From NCBI RefSeq assembly GCF_045037415.1, contig NZ_CP173438.1: a stretch of 64,000 nt of DNA; one strand, written 5' to 3'. Position numbers and translations under genes: made by a program. This DNA is from Escherichia coli (GTDB lineage Bacteria; Pseudomonadota; Gammaproteobacteria; Enterobacterales; Enterobacteriaceae). Position 1 is the stretch's first letter. Each line of letters opens with the position of its first letter. The notes under the pieces were generated by a model that was given only the letters and a program-made list of their open reading frames with translations, was not told the DNA's origin and did not search any database. Shown here piece by piece: positions 14,072 through 43,247 of this stretch.

Positions 14072-14640
14072 TAGCGTATCCTCAGTGACCGTTCGCCGCG
14101 TTCCAGATGTGCGCCTGGTACCGGGTTTAATAACTCGGCTGGTGGTGTTTCTCCACGCGCCAGTATTTCGGCGGCAACCGCCTCCGCAGATTCAATCACT
14201 TCTTTAATGGCTCGCTTGTTTGGTGTAATAACCGTTTCTACATCAACAAGTGACACGCCCTCATACTCATCCGGGATCTTATCTTTGCTATCGATAATTA
14301 CCCGGATAGTCCCCTGTGCATCAGTAAATGTGTTTTTTGCGGTTTTCAGTTTATCCAGGCCAGCAGCTTGCAGGCAGGTGAGCATATGCTTTCGAATTGC
14401 TTTTTCCTTGCCTTCAAAGGACGTCTTACGGGTTGCCAGGCGAGACATTTCTTCAGCGCAGGTATTGGCATTGCCCTGTAAATTACGGCAGATGACCATC
14501 ATGGCGTCCAGTTTGTCTCCCAGTTCTCCTTCCATGCCTTCAAGCGTGTCGGCGATCATCTCTGGCGTCAGTTCATCGGCGGTTTCTAACAGGTCAATCA
14601 GACTGGCATATTCTTTTGCAATAGCGATAGCAGTGCTCAT
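14071..14640 (-). CDS. Siphovirus Gp157-like early protein
   Basis: 189 aa acidic helical protein. The N-terminal pattern resembles the Gp157 family as I recall it. Lies in the recombination module. Confidence 0.5.
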   Translation of the reverse strand: MSTAIAIAKEYASLIDLLETADELTPEMIADTLEGMEGELGDKLDAMMVICRNLQGNANTCAEEMSRLATRKTSFEGKEKAIRKHMLTCLQAAGLDKLKTAKNTFTDAQGTIRVIIDSKDKIPDEYEGVSLVDVETVITPNKRAIKEVIESAEAVAAEILARGETPPAELLNPVPGAHLERGERSLRIR

Positions 14641-17204: not shown

Positions 17205-18060
17205 AGCGACTCCTTGGTAATGTATACTCAGAGCCGATCAGCGAATATTGATCAGCTTCCATAGCGTCAGTGTCGTTGGTCTTTCCTCATCACAAGTTTG
17301 GTCACTTGTGATAAATCCGAATGGTTTGGTCGCCGTTCGGGGTAACTGGCCCGCCTTGTGCGGGTCTTTTGCTATCTAAAGGGTGCCGGTTACGTTTCCG
17401 GCGTCGTTATGTTTCCATTACGACCGTACAGGGCTGGTCAGGCCCGGGCTGGTCTTTCCTGTTTTGAGCTGGTCAGGCTCATGGTCAACGCTGGTCAGGC
17501 GTGGTACTTCCTCCGGTCTTTCCCTGGTGTCACGCTGCGGGTTTGGCCTCTCCTGTTGGGGACTCAGGCACAGCGATAAAACCTGGCTGTGTGAAAAAAT
17601 GGCCCATCGTGCGGACTGGGCAAAGACTAAACACAGCAAATTGATGATGGGCGCCCGGAATCGAACCGGGTAACGGGCAGGGAGTTCCCGTTAAACACCT
17701 GTTCACCACAACCGGGAGCGCACTCCGCCATTTCAAAATTTAACGACAAAGCTCAAAGTTGAGTCGATGAAGTGCGCTCTCGTGTTGTAGCCAGGACTCT
17801 TCCCTGGTGGTCACACCGTATCGCCTTGATGGTGAATCAATCGCTCATACCTGGCTGTGGCTTGCACATTCCGGCTACCTGCTATGGAGACAACGCGTTA
17901 AGGCTCCGCTTCCATCCAGACCGCTTCGACACATGTGCCATATGCCGGTGAAGTCTTTCCCTCTGTCACCGTGTTGGCGCCGACGCGCAAAATTTGGTGC
18001 CGTCTTTCCGGCTGTCAGAACGTGTTTCTGAACAACTGCCGCTGGGTAAGCGTTGTTGAT
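17205..18060 (-). other. ORF-free, GC-rich transcribed leader of the leftward early operon (candidate structured RNA)
   Basis: No protein-like ORF on either strand. Many hairpins, five GGAAAGAC copies and three GCCTGACCAGC copies. Lies between the putative pL and the first ORF. Confidence 0.4.
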
Positions 18061-18067
18061 GAAAGTG

Positions 18068-18096
18068 ACTTTACAATTTGTATTTGTAATGGTCAA
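18068..18096 (-). promoter_or_regulatory. candidate pL promoter with overlapping operator
   Basis: Minus strand reads TTGACC-N17-TAAAGT. The palindrome TACAAtTTGTA (18072..18082) overlaps the -10 and spacer. Confidence 0.45.
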
Positions 18097-18214
18097 TGTG
18101 TTTTTAAAAAATAATTTGTAGTTAGGGGCAAAAAAATATTCACTGTGTAAAGGTGTTTTTGTGTTAGGGGAAAGTTGCATGCCAGCAGCGGCTGGCCTGG
18201 AAATTTGAACTGAA

Positions 18215-18608
18215 CTATTTTGTCTGGTTTTTGGCTTCAAGTAGTTCTTTTAGCAGTAGATCGAAGTGCTCTCTTTTTTCTTTTAGCTCATTGATTAATT
18301 TATTTTTTTCGCTCTCAGGCAGTCCTCTGAATAGTTGCAGTAGAGCCTGTTCTTGCGGGGTTAGTTCTTGATTGTAATTACCCGGGTGTAGTGTGGATTC
18401 ATCCAAATATTCCCCTTCATTCATGAAGAAAAAATGAACAGGGTATCCGGTCACTTTTGCTAGCTTGTCTAATTTATCTTTTCTTGGAGTTACCCCATTA
18501 CACCATGCCTGAACTGATTGAGCCGTAACCCCAATATGGCGAGCTAACTCAGATTGAGAACCAGCCTAAGTCTTTTAGAATCCGTTGTAGTCGGCTAGCA
18601 AAAGCCAT
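18215..18608 (-). pseudogene. CI-type HTH (XRE) repressor interrupted by a 1-nt frameshift
   Basis: ATG at 18608 gives MAFASRLQRILKDLGW and then a TGA. The next frame continues SQSELARHIGVTAQSVQAWCNGVTPRKDKLDKLAKVTGYPVHFFF... into ORF 18215..18454. The span is 394 nt, i.e. 131 codons plus 1. Confidence 0.75.
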
Positions 18609-18727
18609 GTTTTTCGTTTTTGTGTTCATACCGTAAGGATACAAGGTTTAATTGTAGGGAGCATTGCAAATATAATTTGTAATTACAGTTATTGTTTGTA
18701 ATGATGACGCGGACACAAGGAGTCCAT
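18609..18727. promoter_or_regulatory. divergent immunity control region (PR/PRM-like) with operator candidates
   Basis: TATAAT at 18671..18676. Perfect palindrome TGTAATTACA at 18678..18687. TTTGTAAT-type half sites recur here and at 18072-18125. Confidence 0.5.
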
Positions 18728-18958
18728 ATGGATAAACAACTGCAAGACAAAATTCTTTCCGTAATGAGTCAATCCGAGTTAGGGCGGCGATTAGGGAAAA
18801 AACCACAAACGGTAAGCCTCTGGTTCAAAGGACGGGTTCCCGGTGAAGAGGTTTTGCGCACATCTGAAGCTCTTGAATGGCGCGTGACCCCTCATGATCT
18901 TAGACCGGATCTTTACCCAAACCCAGATGACAGCTTGCCTAAAACGGAAGCAGCTTAA
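18728..18958 (+). CDS. Cro/YdaS-like HTH protein
   Basis: 76 aa from the ATG with an AAGGAG RBS. HTH in SQSELGRRLGKKPQTVSLWFKG. Divergent from the repressor. Confidence 0.7.
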   Translation: MDKQLQDKILSVMSQSELGRRLGKKPQTVSLWFKGRVPGEEVLRTSEALEWRVTPHDLRPDLYPNPDDSLPKTEAA

Positions 18959-19016: not shown

Positions 19017-19493
19017 ATGGAAAACCAAGAGGAATTACAAAAAGAGATTTTGACCTGGGCGGCAAGGGCAGGGCAGGAACTCGTCACGATTGAAATCTGC
19101 CGGGCCTGGTTCAGTCAGGGACGCAATGATGAGTTGAGACTACATGAATTTGAGGACGCGGACGGCAACGTGGACTGGAGAGCCATCAACAACAATCGGC
19201 AGAAAATCTTTCGCTGGTTACGTGGCGAGACAACGGCGGCGCGCCGAAAAACTCAGGTGCTGGCCAGTGTGATGAAAGCCGTGCTACCCGCAGAACGGCG
19301 GGCACGTCTGGAGTCGCCGGGCGATCCCGTTTTGCTGGCAACGCTGGCGGCAAAAGAAGGGGTGGAAGCGATTAACGCTGTACATCTCCACTTCGCGCCA
19401 GAGTTAACTATTCAGGAAATTGACGAAGCAATAGCGGCGCTGGTAGCGACGCGAGGAGCAGTGATACGCACTGCGCAAGACCACCATGCATGA
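19017..19493 (+). CDS. CII/YdaT-like early regulator candidate
   Basis: 158-aa ORF immediately after the cro-like gene, with a good RBS. Function assigned by position only. Confidence 0.45.
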   Translation: MENQEELQKEILTWAARAGQELVTIEICRAWFSQGRNDELRLHEFEDADGNVDWRAINNNRQKIFRWLRGETTAARRKTQVLASVMKAVLPAERRARLESPGDPVLLATLAAKEGVEAINAVHLHFAPELTIQEIDEAIAALVATRGAVIRTAQDHHA

Positions 19494-23650: not shown

Positions 23651-23811
23651 ATGTGTTAGGCACGGCCACATTCGCATTATGGTGGGCTGTGTGGGGGCTT
23701 CTGTGGAAGCGCCGGGTTCACTTAGCCGGTTACGCCAACCCTGCACAGCTCACCACCAGATGATTGGCGTCGCTGGTGGTGATGAAAAAAACACTAAGTG
23801 AGGCCACTGCG

Positions 23812-24600
23812 ATGACAGTCCAAATATCTGCGGAATCCCTTTCTCCGCTACATCATAACCAACTTCCCGTCATCACTACTGAATTGCTTGCCAGTTTGTA
23901 TGGCACGGAAGTAAATGGTATCCAGCAAAACTTCAAGCGCAACATCGCCAGATTTGTCGTAGGAAAGCATTTTTTTAAGCTGGAAGGTAATGAATTACGC
24001 GACTTCAAAAACAGACTGACAGATAGTCAGTCAGTTGCTAAACATACCCGATCCCTCATTCTCTGGACAGAACGCGGCGCAGCTCGCCATGCCAAAATGC
24101 TGGAAACAGAACAGGCCTGGGAAGTTTTCGAAAAGCTGGAAGATTGTTATTTTAGCCAGCGTCCAGAGAGGCGGAGTACAACTACCGATGACCGTACTCC
24201 CTTGCGTGATGCCGTTAATATACTGGTCGGCAAGAAAGGCATGATGTATCCCGATGCCTACACCATGATTCATCAACGCTTCGCCGTCTCTCACATAGAA
24301 CAACTGTCACAGACGCAAATGTTAGAGGCGATTGAATACATCCACTGCCTGCTACTCGATGAAAATCACCCAACCATTCCAGATTTTTCTTTTATCACCA
24401 CTATCAAAAATGGAAAAGTGACCGGGATGCGCCATGTTGCCAAAGGCGAACATCTGATGACCTTTGACGCTTTCAAAGAGATCGCTGAGCGGGCAGGGTA
24501 TCTGGTGATCCACAGCGACAATCTGCGAAGTATGACACTGGATAAATTGATGGTAATGGGGAAAAAGTCGGCTATATCCGTTGCTAATTCAGCATTTTGA
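23812..24600 (+). CDS. ORF6N-domain antirepressor-like (Ant/KilA-type) protein
   Basis: Start MTVQISAESL with a GAGG RBS. NQLPVITTELLASLYGTEVNGIQQNFKRNIARFVVGKHFFKLEGNELRDFK fits the ORF6N pattern. Confidence 0.65.
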   Translation: MTVQISAESLSPLHHNQLPVITTELLASLYGTEVNGIQQNFKRNIARFVVGKHFFKLEGNELRDFKNRLTDSQSVAKHTRSLILWTERGAARHAKMLETEQAWEVFEKLEDCYFSQRPERRSTTTDDRTPLRDAVNILVGKKGMMYPDAYTMIHQRFAVSHIEQLSQTQMLEAIEYIHCLLLDENHPTIPDFSFITTIKNGKVTGMRHVAKGEHLMTFDAFKEIAERAGYLVIHSDNLRSMTLDKLMVMGKKSAISVANSAF

Positions 24601-28046: not shown

Positions 28047-28652
28047 TTACTTGCGTTTAAAAAGGTATTTTGTCACGACCAGCACGAGGCCGAATACCTC
28101 TGTCAAAGTACCGCCCATGTACAACTGTAGTGTTAAATCCTCAAATTCCAGCTTACCTGCGCCGTCGGCAATAAATACACCATTCATTATCAGAAGTTGG
28201 AAAGCAAGGATAATCAGGAACCATTTCCCGTATCGTTTTTTTAGAGCGATTTCTGCTTCAAAATCTTTGTTGTTGAGTTGTTTGCGCTCATGCTCGGTAT
28301 CAAGTGAATTCACCTGTTTCACAGATGTGAACTCGGTCAAGATTTTACTCTCAGTACGGGTGACTTGTTGAGAGGGTGTAGCAGTTGGAATTCTTTTGCT
28401 AGACGCAGCTACAGCCATTTTGCGAGCTTCGGCAGCTCTTTTTCTGGCTATTCCGCGAATACGGACAGCCGTTTTTTTGGGGGCGTGCGAAACCTTTGGC
28501 TGAGGTGAAGCTTCGTCAGGAGACTGAACCGGAGTTTCATCGTCCTCCGGCTCAACCTCTTCTGCTAACTGACGGTGTAGGTTGAGGGAATCCTTCAGTC
28601 TGCGTGCTACTTCCTGTTTGAAACGGCTGTTAAAATCGTCATCCGATGGCAT
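28047..28652 (-). CDS. two-TM membrane protein with a charged, disordered N-terminal region (candidate effector)
   Basis: 201 aa. Hydrophobic helices WFLIILAFQLLIMNGVFIA and GGTLTEVFGLVLVVTKYLF. Starts 9 nt after the peptidase gene. Confidence 0.7.
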   Translation of the reverse strand: MPSDDDFNSRFKQEVARRLKDSLNLHRQLAEEVEPEDDETPVQSPDEASPQPKVSHAPKKTAVRIRGIARKRAAEARKMAVAASSKRIPTATPSQQVTRTESKILTEFTSVKQVNSLDTEHERKQLNNKDFEAEIALKKRYGKWFLIILAFQLLIMNGVFIADGAGKLEFEDLTLQLYMGGTLTEVFGLVLVVTKYLFKRK

Positions 28653-28661
28653 TTTAAAGCG

Positions 28662-29150
28662 TTACCCCAACCTCAAGTTCTTTAAACGATAAGTCATCGC
28701 ATCGTCAGATACGCCAAAATAATGCGCCATTATATAACTTGGTTGACCGTCAGCGTGCAGTTTTCTGACCTCATCTACCGGCATCAGAAGTTCTGCTGCG
28801 AACTTGTTTGCAAAAATTTCATCAGGATGCGTTCCGGCGCTTGCGGTTTCGCCACGTAAATCAACGTACTCATATTCATCGCTATGCGATGCTTGCCGGG
28901 CGATGTAATGCCCCAACTCATGCCCACATGAAAAACGTTGACGAACTTTGTTGTCATCACTGTTTAGAAAGATCGCTGGATCTTGATCTTTTTGTTTAAT
29001 CAGTGCGCCAGAAACTTTCCCAGGAAGATCGGTAATAAAAACATCTAATCCCATGTCGTGAGCAATTTTCGCTGGATCAACAGGGAAACCACGCCCGCAC
29101 CAGAACGTGTCCAGCACTCGCCGGGCGTGCTCTCTTGGGTTGGTAGCCAT
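28662..29150 (-). CDS. ImmA/IrrE-family (M78) zinc metallopeptidase, stand-alone
   Basis: 162 aa. HExxH in FSCGHELGHYIARQ. GGAGG RBS. No HTH domain or adjacent HTH gene. Confidence 0.8.
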   Translation of the reverse strand: MATNPREHARRVLDTFWCGRGFPVDPAKIAHDMGLDVFITDLPGKVSGALIKQKDQDPAIFLNSDDNKVRQRFSCGHELGHYIARQASHSDEYEYVDLRGETASAGTHPDEIFANKFAAELLMPVDEVRKLHADGQPSYIMAHYFGVSDDAMTYRLKNLRLG

Positions 29151-30760: not shown

Positions 30761-30796
30761 ATGACAAATGCCATAAAATACTGTATAAATATACAG
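30761..30796 (+). promoter_or_regulatory. sigma-70 promoter overlapped by a LexA (SOS) box
   Basis: ATGACA-N17-TATAAA. CTGTATAAATATACAG at 30781..30796 fits CTGT-N8-ACAG and the TACTGTATATATATACAGTA consensus. Confidence 0.6.
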
Positions 30797-30818
30797 GTTG
30801 TGGCATTGGGGGGAAGAC

Positions 30819-30998
30819 ATGAATATTCAAGAATCTATAGGCGAACTACCGGAAACATGCCGGGCTGTTATCAAGCGTAAGGACGGACACATCGTTGGTG
30901 TGCGTGTTCTGACCGATGATGAGCGGATTGCCAGCCTGATGGCGTTTCTCGAGTTGGCAGAAATAGCTGGATATACTATTACACCCCCTGACGCGTAA
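30819..30998 (+). CDS. small SOS-controlled protein (antirepressor candidate)
   Basis: 59 aa. ATG directly after GGGGGGAAGAC. First ORF downstream of the LexA box. Confidence 0.45.
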   Translation: MNIQESIGELPETCRAVIKRKDGHIVGVRVLTDDERIASLMAFLELAEIAGYTITPPDA

Positions 30999-40669: not shown

Positions 40670-41705
40670 ATGAGCGATTCGTTTACTACGTCAGAACTGA
40701 TTACCGCGACACAGCAGGTATTTAAGTTCAATCCGTTGTTTTTAAAGCTGTTTTTCCGTGAGACCTACACGTTTACGAGCGAAGAGGTTTTTCTGGATAA
40801 AATCCCGGGAAAAGTGAACATGGCCGTGTACTGCGCGCCGATGATCACCGGCAAAGTTGACCGCACTCGCGGCTATTCAACGAACCATTTCAAACCGGGT
40901 TACACGAAACCCAAGCACACGATCAATCCGAATATGAGCATCAAGCGCGCAGCCGGTGAGCAGATTGGCCAGCCGGAAACGCCGGTCGAACGTCGTGCAA
41001 AAATCATCATGCAGAACCTGCTTGATGAGGAACTGAGCATCAGCCAGCTCGAAGAGTTCCAGGCGGTACAGGCTGTTCTGTACGGTAAATACACTGTTTC
41101 CGGCAGCAATATCGAGAACCTATGAGATCGACATGAGCCGCAGCGCGACGAATAACGTCACTCAGTCCGGTTCGACAGCCTGGTCGACTCAGGACGCGGA
41201 AACGTATGACCCGAGCGACGATATTGAATCCTACGCGGACCTCGCCTCCGGTGCGGTTAACGTGATCATCATGGATGGTAAAGCCTGGAAGCAGTTGAAG
41301 CGTTTTAAAAAATTCTGGACGGCACTGGATACGCGCCGTGGCTCAAACAGCCAGCTCGAGGTCGCGCTGAAAAACCTGGGCGACGTTGTCAGCTTTAAAG
41401 GCTACTACGGCGACACTGCGCTGTTTGTCTACAAAGGGCAATACCTCGACCCGGTAACAGACACTGAAACGCGTTATATGCCGGATAACACGATGATCCT
41501 TGGCAACACAAAAAACCGCGGGCTCCGCACTTATGGCGCAATTCAGGACGAAGACGCGCTGAAAGAGGGTATTTCCGAAGCGACGCGCTATCCAAAAGTC
41601 TGGACCACTACCGGTGATCCGGCAGTGACGCAAACAATGACGCAATCCGCGCCAGCAATGGTCCTCACGGACGCCGACGCGTTCGTTGTCGTAAAAATCG
41701 CGTAA
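40670..41705 (+). pseudogene. major capsid protein (lambda gpE-like) split by a +1 frameshift
   Basis: ORFs 40670..41125 and 41133..41705 align end to end with lambda gpE (341 aa). The frames switch around 41117..41122 (gagaaCCtatgag). Confidence 0.85.
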
Positions 41706-42567: not shown

Positions 42568-43247
42568 GTGGCCGATTTACGTAGTAACGCGCAGATGTTC
42601 GATATCGATGTTTCGGCGCTGGAGCAGCTCAGAGTCGAAATCAGCGCGACGCAACATCAAATGTTAATGGTATACAACAGGGCGCTGAACCGAACTGCAA
42701 AACATATGCACCGAATTTCAGCAGGAATGATTTTGACTGCACTGGCAGCTAAAAATCATAAGGCCGTAGATAAACGAATCAAGCCGTTCATTAAGCGCCG
42801 TAATTTTACAAAAGAAGGGGCAGGAGACCTGAGCAGCGCCAAGCTCTGGTACGGTCTGAATGATTTCCGGGTATCTGAGCTAAAGGGGCGATTACAAAAT
42901 CCACGGAGGCAAAAACAGCCTCGCGATCTTGAACCGGCCTGTTTTTGAAAACCAAAAAAGGCGCTAGAGGGGCAACTTTTACACCCAAAAGTGCAGGGCT
43001 GGCGATGATGAGTTGGCCCGATTCATTCGTAGCGAAACGCTACGGTGCGAAAAGTGTCTGGATTCGACTGGATCGCGGAGGAATCGAAGAGGCTCGCGTA
43101 CCTGTGCACGACGCGCTGGAGGATGCTATCGATGATTATATTTTTGAAAACATTGGCCCTGTTTTTATGGGCTTTTTTGAGAAAGATTTGCGCGGTCGCG
43201 TGAAAGGTAATGTCCACGTAGACCCAAAAACAGGTAAACGATTATGA
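42568..43247 (+). pseudogene. tail completion protein (lambda gpZ-like) split at a T5 run
   Basis: ORF 42568..42948 and ORF 42945..43247 together parallel gpZ. One extra T in T5 (42942..42946) would fuse them. The second ORF has no ATG start. Confidence 0.55.

What the first reader, a model, noticed from the sequence alone, without database searches (positions are those of the whole stretch)
18215..18608. Immunity repressor gene carries a single-base frameshift 16 codons after its start
Seen: minus-strand ATG 18608 reads MAFASRLQRILKDLGW and then FSI-stop (TGA at plus 18549-18551). Removing one T from tggTTctc (plus-strand aa at 18559-18560) would give ...LGWSQSELARHIGVTAQSVQAWCNGVTPRKDKLDKLAKVTGYPVHFFF..., continuous with ORF 18215..18454 (130 aa in total).

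The HTH is therefore disconnected from its start codon.

Inference: one of three explanations applies. The prophage may be immunity-defective and survive only because other functions are broken. There may be an assembly error. Or the repressor may be made at a low level by ribosomal frameshifting.
Basis: seen in the sequence. Interest (0 to 1): 0.5.

Follow-up and report, generated by a model that had tools for sequence, protein, structure and literature searches.

The report
Methylation-site sequencing error, not frameshift
The one-base "frameshift" in this prophage repressor gene is real in the text of the sequence, but it is almost certainly a sequencing and assembly error at a methylated Eco31I site, so the gene is an ordinary intact 130-residue phage repressor.

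Summary
Minus-strand ATG 18608 reads 19 codons to TGA. Deleting one T at 18559/18560 restores a 130-aa ORF.

The extra base lies inside GGTCTC/GAGACC. This is the Eco31I (EcoMI) site, which E. coli ST131 methylates on both strands.

Over 64 kb the window differs from strain EC958 by two SNPs and three one-base indels. All three indels lie inside GAGACC sites, which make up 0.12% of the bases (P about 2e-8). The other two indels "break" the major capsid gene and a 227-aa structural gene.

The intact repressor allele is present in 433 of 436 complete E. coli genomes carrying this prophage, and in 13 of 13 metagenome/IMG-VR contigs. The three genomes that share the extra T have further GAGACC-site discrepancies and do not share ancestry at a nearby SNP. 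Near-identical "Esc" isolates carry different subsets of these indels.

Verdict: a methylation-motif consensus error, not biology.

The true gene encodes a Gifsy-type, non-cleavable HTH repressor with TTACA-N9-TGTAA operators. A LexA-boxed candidate antirepressor lies elsewhere in the prophage.

By-product: an unannotated, covariation-supported, pseudoknotted RNA of about 200 nt just downstream (17755-17964, minus strand). It is widespread in enterobacterial prophages.

The parts
18215..18608 (-). Repressor gene as it reads in the window (394 nt). With one T removed it is the 393-nt, 130-aa gene WP_000853106.1.
   Evidence: Pfam HTH_3 scores 47.8 bits over residues 7-58 of the restored protein. 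The restored protein aligns to the 434 repressor N-terminal domain without a gap across the shift.
18556..18562 (.). GAGAACC (minus strand GGTTCTC). This is an Eco31I/EcoMI site GAGACC/GGTCTC carrying one extra base (18559 or 18560), and it is the 'frameshift'.
   Evidence: Forde 2015 (PMC4659465) reports GAG(m6A)CC as 100% methylated in EC958 and predicts GGT(m5C)TC methylation on the other strand.
18549..18608 (-). N-terminal fragment as read: 19 codons plus TGA. It encodes helix 1 of the HTH domain and then 3 out-of-frame codons.
18215..18565 (-). Downstream open frame holding HTH helices 2-5 and the C-terminal domain. There is no canonical start before the GTG at 18454.
18639..18701 (.). 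Three operator-like palindromes TTACA-N9-TGTAA (18639-18657, 18664-18682, 18683-18701) between the repressor and cro-like genes (OR-like).
   Evidence: Both exact matches to the palindrome in the whole 64 kb fall in the immunity region.
18068..18096 (-). Leftward promoter-like site (TTGACC-17-TAAAGT) overlapped by a fourth exact operator palindrome at 18071-18089 (OL/PL-like).
18728..18958 (+). Divergent cro-like gene (76 aa; YdaS/HTH). It is followed by a cII-like YdaT-family gene at 19017-19493.
41114..41120 (+). Second GAGAACC where EC958 has GAGACC. It splits the major capsid gene (40670-41705) into ORFs 40670-41125 and 41133-41705.
   Evidence: One search shows that 18 of 430 genomes share this allele.
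42929..42933 (+). GAACC where EC958 has GAGACC (one G missing). It truncates the 227-aa structural gene at 42568-43247.
   Evidence: One search shows 7 of 426 genomes share this allele, all from the 'Esc' series.
30781..30998 (+). Perfect LexA box CTGTATAAATATACAG (30781-30796), 22 nt upstream of a 59-aa gene (30819-30998). This is the candidate SOS-controlled antirepressor acting on the repressor.
   Evidence: The link to the repressor is inferred by analogy with Gifsy prophages (PMC3121763).

Best explanation
The extra T is a consensus error of the assembly, produced where the sequencing chemistry or basecaller mis-reads a doubly methylated Eco31I/EcoMI site (GAG-m6A-CC / GGT-m5C-TC). In the organism the gene is most likely intact. 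It encodes a 130-aa Cro/CI-type HTH repressor of the leuZ-integrated ST131 prophage.

Shown:
- The indel lies in the motif.
- All three indels of the window lie in this motif.
- The motif is methylated in ST131.
- The same kinds of discrepancy recur in unrelated recent assemblies and vary among near-identical isolates.
- The population allele is in frame.

Inferred:
- The platform was a long-read, methylation-sensitive one.
- The true protein acts as the immunity repressor by binding the TTACA-N9-TGTAA palindromes at OR (three sites) and OL (one site).
- Because it lacks a peptidase S24 domain, the repressor is inactivated on SOS induction by a LexA-controlled antirepressor, as in the Gifsy prophages.
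For: (1): over window 300-64000 against EC958 there are only 5 differences. Two are SNPs and three are 1-bp indels, at 18559, 41117 and 42932, each inside a GAGACC site.

(2): 10 such sites cover 0.12% of the 48.7 kb compared, giving P(>=3 of 5) = 1.9e-8.

(3) (Forde 2015, PMC4659465): GAGACC is 100% m6A-methylated in EC958 by M1.EcoMI, M2.EcoMI is predicted to add m5C on the other strand, and the motif is enriched in prophages. The indels fall at motif positions 3-4, which are the modified base pairs.

(4): only 3 of 436 complete genomes have the extra T.

(5): each of those three genomes has further differences at other GAGACC sites. A1.S1.126 also has differences at Dcm sites and two more PGAP 'frameshifted' genes. 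The older assembly Ecol_AZ146 has none.

(6): the extra T occurs on both alleles of the neighbouring SNP at 14310, and so does the intact allele. The four-gamete test therefore fails, meaning the extra T is recurrent, not inherited.

(7): the window's capsid-site allele is in 18 of 430 genomes and its 42932 allele in 7 of 426. These are concentrated in a few recent batches (Esc*, UID23/24*, 439/446/447, A1.S1.126). The near-identical Esc isolates (5,156,493-5,156,531 bp) carry different subsets.

(8): other contigs with a truncated product carry a different indel in the same GGTCTC (L011 and L016, where the C is missing), T6-homopolymer +/-1 errors, an N-run or a contig break. Two low-coverage metagenome contigs carry lesions outside these classes: a 1-bp deletion in AGCCGAC (L014) and C-to-T changes that create a stop (L018).

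(9): 13 of 13 metagenome and IMG/VR contigs have the intact 29-mer.

(10): the literature shows that nanopore consensus errors concentrate in methylation motifs.

(11): the repaired protein is a gapless match to HTH_3, to the 434 repressor N-terminal domain and to the Gifsy-1/-2 repressors.
Against: - No reads are available, so the error is inferred and not seen.
- I do not know the platform or polishing of the source assembly, nor of the three RefSeq genomes that share the extra T.
- The published nanopore methylation errors I could read are mostly substitutions, whereas this is an insertion.
- The window also has a private SNP (18123) about 90 bp beyond the repressor stop and 34 bp from the OL-like operator. 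It is not at any known ST131 methylation motif and is unexplained.
Confidence: 0.92

Rival explanations
1. The frameshift is a real mutation. This isolate carries a repressor-null copy of the prophage that is tolerated because the prophage is otherwise crippled or is silenced by another factor.
For: The sequence as given reads that way. Two structural genes are also interrupted. A private SNP lies near the OL-like operator.
Against: All three lesions are at the same methylated hexamer (P about 2e-8). Capsid or tail defects would not protect a derepressed lysogen, because integrase, replication (O-like, DnaB), Q, holins and endolysin are base-for-base identical to EC958. The same lesion recurs on different haplotypes and varies among near-identical isolates.
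Confidence: 0.05
2. Programmed +1 ribosomal frameshifting (or transcriptional slippage) produces a low level of full-length repressor from the shifted gene.
For: None beyond the fact that a +1 shift would restore the frame. A stop codon (UGA) follows 3 codons after the shift, as in prfB.
Against: 433 of 436 genomes and 13 of 13 other contigs have the gene in frame, so the shift is not the conserved state. The sequence GGC UGG UUC UCA AUC UGA G offers no re-pairing of the P-site tRNA in the +1 frame. There is no CUU-UGA-type site, no upstream SD-like stimulator, and the run of T is only two bases long (rules of prfB-type frameshifting and slippage from my own knowledge).
Confidence: 0.01
3. The extra base is real, and the C-terminal 63-79 residue fragment is made alone from GTG 18454, ATG 18424 or TTG 18406 as a truncated regulator.
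For: PGAP and other pipelines annotate 63-aa and 69-aa products on a few dozen contigs.
Against: Among the ten such contigs examined, the lesions are heterogeneous and are mostly typical sequencing-error types (homopolymer length, motif indel, N-run). The fragment has no DNA-binding domain and no Pfam family.
Confidence: 0.02

Closest known systems
Methylation-motif consensus errors of nanopore assemblies (for example Dcm CCWGG errors, Wick et al. 2019, PMC6591954; strain-specific motifs, Lohde et al. 2024, PMC11610573)
   Same: The errors are confined to a short motif that the strain methylates. They recur at the same sites in independent assemblies, are absent from assemblies made with other chemistries, and create false pseudogenes.
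   Different: The motif here is the ST131-specific Eco31I/EcoMI site GAGACC, not Dcm. At this site the error is a 1-bp insertion, whereas the cited papers describe mostly substitutions. The platform of the source assembly is unknown to me.
Gifsy-1/Gifsy-2 repressors GfoR/GtgR (Lemire et al. 2011, PMC3121763)
   Same: The restored protein is 130 aa against 136 aa for the Gifsy repressor. It shares 33% identity over 98% of its length with the Gifsy-1/-2 repressor genes. It has an N-terminal Cro/CI HTH and no peptidase S24 domain. A LexA box precedes a small gene far from the immunity region.
   Different: The operators differ. The candidate antirepressor (59 aa, phrog_340) is not shown to be related to GfoA/GftA, and no binding or induction data exist. 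The prophage also has an ORF6N Ant-like gene (23764-24600).
Phage 434 / lambda CI repressors
   Same: The N-terminal five-helix HTH aligns with 434 repressor residues 3-59. The gene is divergent from a cro-like gene, with three operators in between.
   Different: There is no C-terminal S24 autocleavage domain, so RecA-stimulated self-cleavage is not expected.
prfB-type programmed +1 frameshift
   Same: An in-frame UGA lies shortly after the point where a +1 shift would be needed.
   Different: There is no slippery codon and no SD-like stimulator, and the shifted arrangement is not conserved.

Membership tests
Methylation-motif sequencing artefact | The discrepancy lies inside a motif known to be methylated in the lineage. 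| tested here: met
   The extra base lies within GAGACC/GGTCTC. The motif is 100% m6A-methylated in EC958, with m5C predicted on the other strand.
Methylation-motif sequencing artefact | Other discrepancies of the same assembly concentrate in the same motif. | tested here: met
   3 of 3 indels, and 3 of 5 of all differences in 64 kb, are in GAGACC sites. P = 1.9e-8.
Methylation-motif sequencing artefact | The discrepancy recurs in independent assemblies without shared ancestry and varies among clonal re-sequenced isolates. | tested here: met
   Four-gamete failure with the SNP at 14310. The Esc, UID and 439-447 batches carry different subsets of the indels.
Methylation-motif sequencing artefact | Raw reads or orthogonal chemistry show the reference allele. 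| not testable with these tools
   No reads are available. Indirect support only: 433 of 436 genomes and 13 of 13 metagenome/IMG-VR contigs are intact.
Cro/CI-type HTH (Pfam HTH_3, PF01381) | A contiguous five-helix HTH domain scoring above the family's gathering score. | tested here: met
   The restored protein scores 47.8 bits against a cut-off of 23, over residues 7-58. As read in the window, the domain is split after helix 1.
Gifsy-type non-cleavable repressor (GfoR/GtgR) | Small size (about 130-150 aa), similarity to GfoR/GtgR over nearly the full length, and no S24 cleavage domain. | tested here: met
   130 aa, 33% identity over 98% of the length, E = 4e-11. No Peptidase_S24 hit.
Gifsy-type non-cleavable repressor (GfoR/GtgR) | A LexA-controlled antirepressor gene outside the immunity region that binds the repressor. 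| tested here: inconclusive
   A perfect LexA box lies at 30781-30796 before a 59-aa gene. About 0.6 such matches are expected by chance in the window. The protein (phrog_340) has no assigned function, and binding is not testable here.
Lambda CI / LexA-type autocleaving repressor | A C-terminal peptidase S24 domain with a Ser/Lys dyad and an Ala-Gly site. | tested here: not met
   No S24 hit. The protein is only 130 aa.
Programmed ribosomal frameshift gene | The out-of-frame arrangement is conserved among homologues. | tested here: not met
   433 of 436 genomes have the gene in frame.
Programmed ribosomal frameshift gene | A slippery site that allows P-site tRNA re-pairing, with a stimulatory element. 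| tested here: not met
   Inspection of GGC UGG UUC UCA AUC UGA G finds none. The criteria are from my own knowledge of prfB and dnaX.

The most novel reading that the evidence does not exclude
The extra base is real. Under this reading, Eco31I/EcoMI sites would be genuine 1-bp indel hot spots in ST131, for example through processing of the doubly methylated site. A minority of ST131 isolates would then carry a repressor-null but otherwise intact prophage, kept quiet by some other mechanism.
Probability: 0.03. Interest if true: 0.6.

Novelty: not a real feature. Interest (0 to 1): 0.08.

Why it matters
For biology, this removes a false lead: the ST131 leuZ prophage has an intact Gifsy-type repressor.

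For practice, it is a useful warning. In ST131 genomes the lineage-specific GAGACC methylation produces false frameshifts. This happens especially in prophages, where the motif is enriched. Such errors are already present in RefSeq 'complete' genomes:
- 3 of 436 at this site.
- 18 of 430 in the major capsid gene.
- 7 of 426 in a third gene.

Pseudogene calls, prophage-integrity scores and cgMLST distances in this clone will be affected unless assemblies are polished or basecalled with methylation-aware models.

Tried and rejected
- Megablast of the locus against 50,697 phage records gave no match. The prophage is represented there only by partial 'vB_EcoM-705R4'-type records of its late region.
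- Real-mutation reading: rejected on motif statistics and homoplasy.
- Programmed frameshift: rejected on conservation and sequence.
- I looked for the extra-T allele in contigs that encode the truncated 69-aa product. The ten places shown had other lesions instead. Four similar places were not shown, so absence from short-read data is not proven.
- I checked whether the private SNP at 18123 lies in a known ST131 methylation motif (GATC, CCWGG, CANCATC, AACN4CTTT, RTACN4GTG, GAGACC) by eye. It does not.
- For the ORF-free stretch downstream, Rfam gave only sub-threshold hits. The HK022 put RNA hypothesis was rejected, because the covariance model finds nothing in HK022 and there is no second copy in the window. 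A conserved small ORF was also rejected.
- I did not check whether the three genomes with the extra T carry the EcoMI genes, because the tool lists at most 60 of more than 400 expected hits.

Full report
**Observation**

- ATG 18608 opens MAFASRLQRILKDLGWFSI and stops at TGA (plus 18549-18551).
- A second frame is open from 18565 to the stop at 18215-18217. It encodes ...SQSELARHIGVTAQSVQAWCNGVTPRKDKLDKLAKVTGYPVHFFF... and has no canonical start before GTG 18454.
- Deleting one T of tggTTctc gives a 130-aa ORF.

**What the locus is**

- The window is E. coli ST131 chromosome (fliC, sdiA, uvrC, then glyW-cysT-leuZ) with a prophage of about 42 kb integrated at leuZ.
- 436 of 5,426 complete E. 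coli genomes hold the 661-bp locus.
- In SK1144, EC958, Ecol_AZ146 and others the gene is an intact 393-nt CDS, WP_000853106.1. It starts at the same ATG and has a single T.
- A 61-nt probe shows the extra T in only 3 of 436 genomes: A1.S1.126, UID2309220015 and Esc14.
- All 13 metagenome and IMG/VR contigs carrying the surrounding 29-mer have the intact form.

**Why the extra base is an artefact**

I aligned the window to EC958 over positions 300-64000 and found five differences:
- SNP 14310, which is polymorphic in ST131.
- SNP 18123, which is private to the window.
- Three 1-bp indels: 18559 (GAGACC to GAGAACC), 41117 (GAGACC to GAGAACC) and 42932 (GAGACC to GAACC).

EC958 has ten GAGACC/GGTCTC sites in the 48.7 kb compared, which is 0.12% of the bases. 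The chance that 3 of 5 differences fall in them is 1.9e-8.

GAGACC is the Eco31I site. Forde et al. 2015 (PMC4659465) showed the following for ST131 strain EC958:
- It carries the Eco31I-identical system EcoMI.
- 100% of GAG(m6A)CC sites are methylated.
- M2.EcoMI is predicted to give GGT(m5C)TC on the other strand.
- The motif is over-represented in prophages.

The indels sit at motif positions 3-4, which are the two modified base pairs.

Four further observations point the same way.
- The three RefSeq genomes that share the extra T have additional discrepancies at other GAGACC sites (37910, 40762, 24665-6, 42929-31). A1.S1.126 also has discrepancies at Dcm sites, plus two more PGAP 'frameshifted' genes. 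The older Ecol_AZ146 assembly has none.
- The extra T occurs with both alleles of SNP 14310, and so does the intact form. It is therefore recurrent and not inherited.
- The window's capsid-site allele occurs in 18 of 430 genomes, and its 42932 allele in 7 of 426. These are concentrated in a few recent submission batches. Isolates of the near-identical 'Esc' series (5,156,493-5,156,531 bp) carry different subsets of the three indels.
- Ten contigs on which a truncated 69-aa product was called show other lesions. These are loss of the C of the same GGTCTC (L011, a 5.15-Mb contig, and L016), +/-1 in a T6 run, an N-run and a contig break. Two low-coverage metagenome contigs carry lesions outside these classes: a 1-bp deletion in AGCCGAC (L014) and C-to-T changes that create a stop (L018).

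Systematic consensus errors at methylated motifs are well documented for nanopore data (Wick 2019, PMC6591954; Lohde 2024, PMC11610573).

I cannot see reads or the platform, so the conclusion is an inference, but a strong one.

**Why the rivals fail**

- *Real repressor-null prophage.* It would have to survive derepression. The only other 'broken' genes are the major capsid gene (40670-41705) and a 227-aa structural gene (42568-43247). Both are hit at the same motif. Integrase, replication, Q and the lysis genes are identical to EC958.
- *Programmed frameshift.* This is excluded by conservation, since 433 of 436 genomes are in frame. GGC UGG UUC UCA AUC UGA also lacks any slippery or stimulatory element (the criteria are from my own knowledge).

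**What the true gene does (partly inferred)**

The restored protein has these properties:
- It has a Cro/CI HTH: HTH_3 at 47.8 bits, with a weak Phage_CI_repr hit.
- It aligns without a gap to 434 repressor residues 3-59, across the site of the shift.
- It has no peptidase S24 domain.
- It is 33% identical over 98% of its length to the Gifsy-1/-2 repressors.

The Gifsy repressors are not cleaved. They are inactivated by LexA-controlled antirepressors encoded elsewhere in the prophage (Lemire 2011, PMC3121763).

The surrounding immunity region is laid out as follows:
- The gene is divergent from a YdaS/cro-like gene (18728-18958). That gene is followed by a cII-like YdaT-family gene, an O-like gene and DnaB.
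- Palindromes TTACA-N9-TGTAA occur three times between the repressor and cro genes (18639, 18664, 18683).
- A fourth palindrome lies at 18071-18089 and overlaps a leftward promoter-like site.
- A perfect LexA box (30781-30796) precedes a 59-aa gene of unknown function. Its PHROG family also matches the C-terminus of the ORF6N Ant-like protein at 23764-24600.

The likely mechanism is therefore operator binding by a dimeric small repressor, with SOS induction through an antirepressor. The homology and the sites are shown here. The regulatory links are inferred.

**By-product**

The ORF-free 0.86 kb downstream of the repressor contains a conserved element at 17755-17964 on the minus strand.
- Its invariant 19-mer GGTAGCCGGAATGTGCAAG occurs in at least 120 IMG/VR contigs and in 24 species-representative genomes of a dozen Enterobacteriaceae genera.
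- In 46 sequences less than 90% identical to one another, five helices are supported, including an H-type pseudoknot. 97% of cells are paired, against 28-51% when the 3' partners are slid. Twelve pairs show compensatory changes.
- Abundant G-U pairs fix the strand. No ORF is conserved.
- It is not in Rfam 15, and it is not the HK022 put RNA.
- Of 103 distinct copies, 21 have a tRNA-Arg(UCU) about 40 nt downstream and 13 have a tRNA-Met/Ile(CAU) about 45 nt upstream.
- In the window it is followed by a degenerate tRNA-like sequence at 17646-17723.
- Its function is unknown.

**Verdict**

The feature is not real biology, so its interest is low, apart from the warning about GAGACC-site pseudo-frameshifts in ST131 assemblies.

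Noticed in passing
window 17755-17964 (minus strand); alignment A3, model R1: Conserved, unannotated structured-RNA candidate of about 200 nt in the ORF-free stretch downstream of the repressor. It has five covariation-supported helices, including a pseudoknot (12 pairs with compensatory changes, 97% of cells paired). Its invariant 19-mer is present in at least 120 IMG/VR contigs and in a dozen Enterobacteriaceae genera. It is absent from Rfam 15 and is often flanked by tRNA-Arg(UCU) or tRNA-Met/Ile(CAU) at about 40-45 nt. In Uetakevirus phages it lies between the terminase and portal genes on the opposite strand. Function unknown.
   Followed up: partly
window 17646-17723 (minus strand): Degenerate tRNA-like sequence with a canonical T-arm (CCCGG-TTCGATT-CCGGG) about 30 nt after the RNA candidate. 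ARAGORN finds it only at 90% thresholds. A sub-threshold RprA-like Rfam hit overlaps it (17592-17702, 37 bits against a gathering score of 70).
   Followed up: partly
window 41114-41120 and 42929-42933: Two further 1-bp indels relative to EC958, both inside GAGACC sites. They split the major capsid gene (40670-41705) and a 227-aa structural gene (42568-43247). They are the same artefact class as the finding and are shared by 18 of 430 and 7 of 426 complete genomes respectively.
   Followed up: yes
window 18123: Window-private SNP: plus-strand T where all 436 complete genomes have G. It lies about 90 bp downstream of the repressor stop and 34 bp from the OL-like operator palindrome (18071-18089). 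It is not at a known ST131 methylation motif. I cannot tell whether it is real or an error.
   Followed up: partly
window 30781-30998: Perfect LexA box CTGTATAAATATACAG, 22 nt upstream of a 59-aa gene (phrog_340, unknown function). The same PHROG family matches the C-terminus of the ORF6N Ant-like protein at 23764-24600. This is a candidate SOS-controlled antirepressor module.
   Followed up: partly
window 28047-29150 (minus strand): ImmA/IrrE-family metallopeptidase gene (28662-29150, Peptidase_M78) with a 201-aa partner that has no Pfam family (28047-28652) and a small upstream gene. It sits far from the immunity region and may be an accessory or defence module. Not examined.
   Followed up: no
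loci L003, L005, L006 (RefSeq genomes UID2309220015, Esc14, A1.S1.126); hits H139-H153: Several recent RefSeq 'complete' ST131 genomes carry substitutions and indels at GAGACC sites, and in A1.S1.126 also at Dcm sites. These produce PGAP 'frameshifted' calls in the cro-like, endolysin and capsid genes. The pattern follows submission batch.
   Followed up: partly
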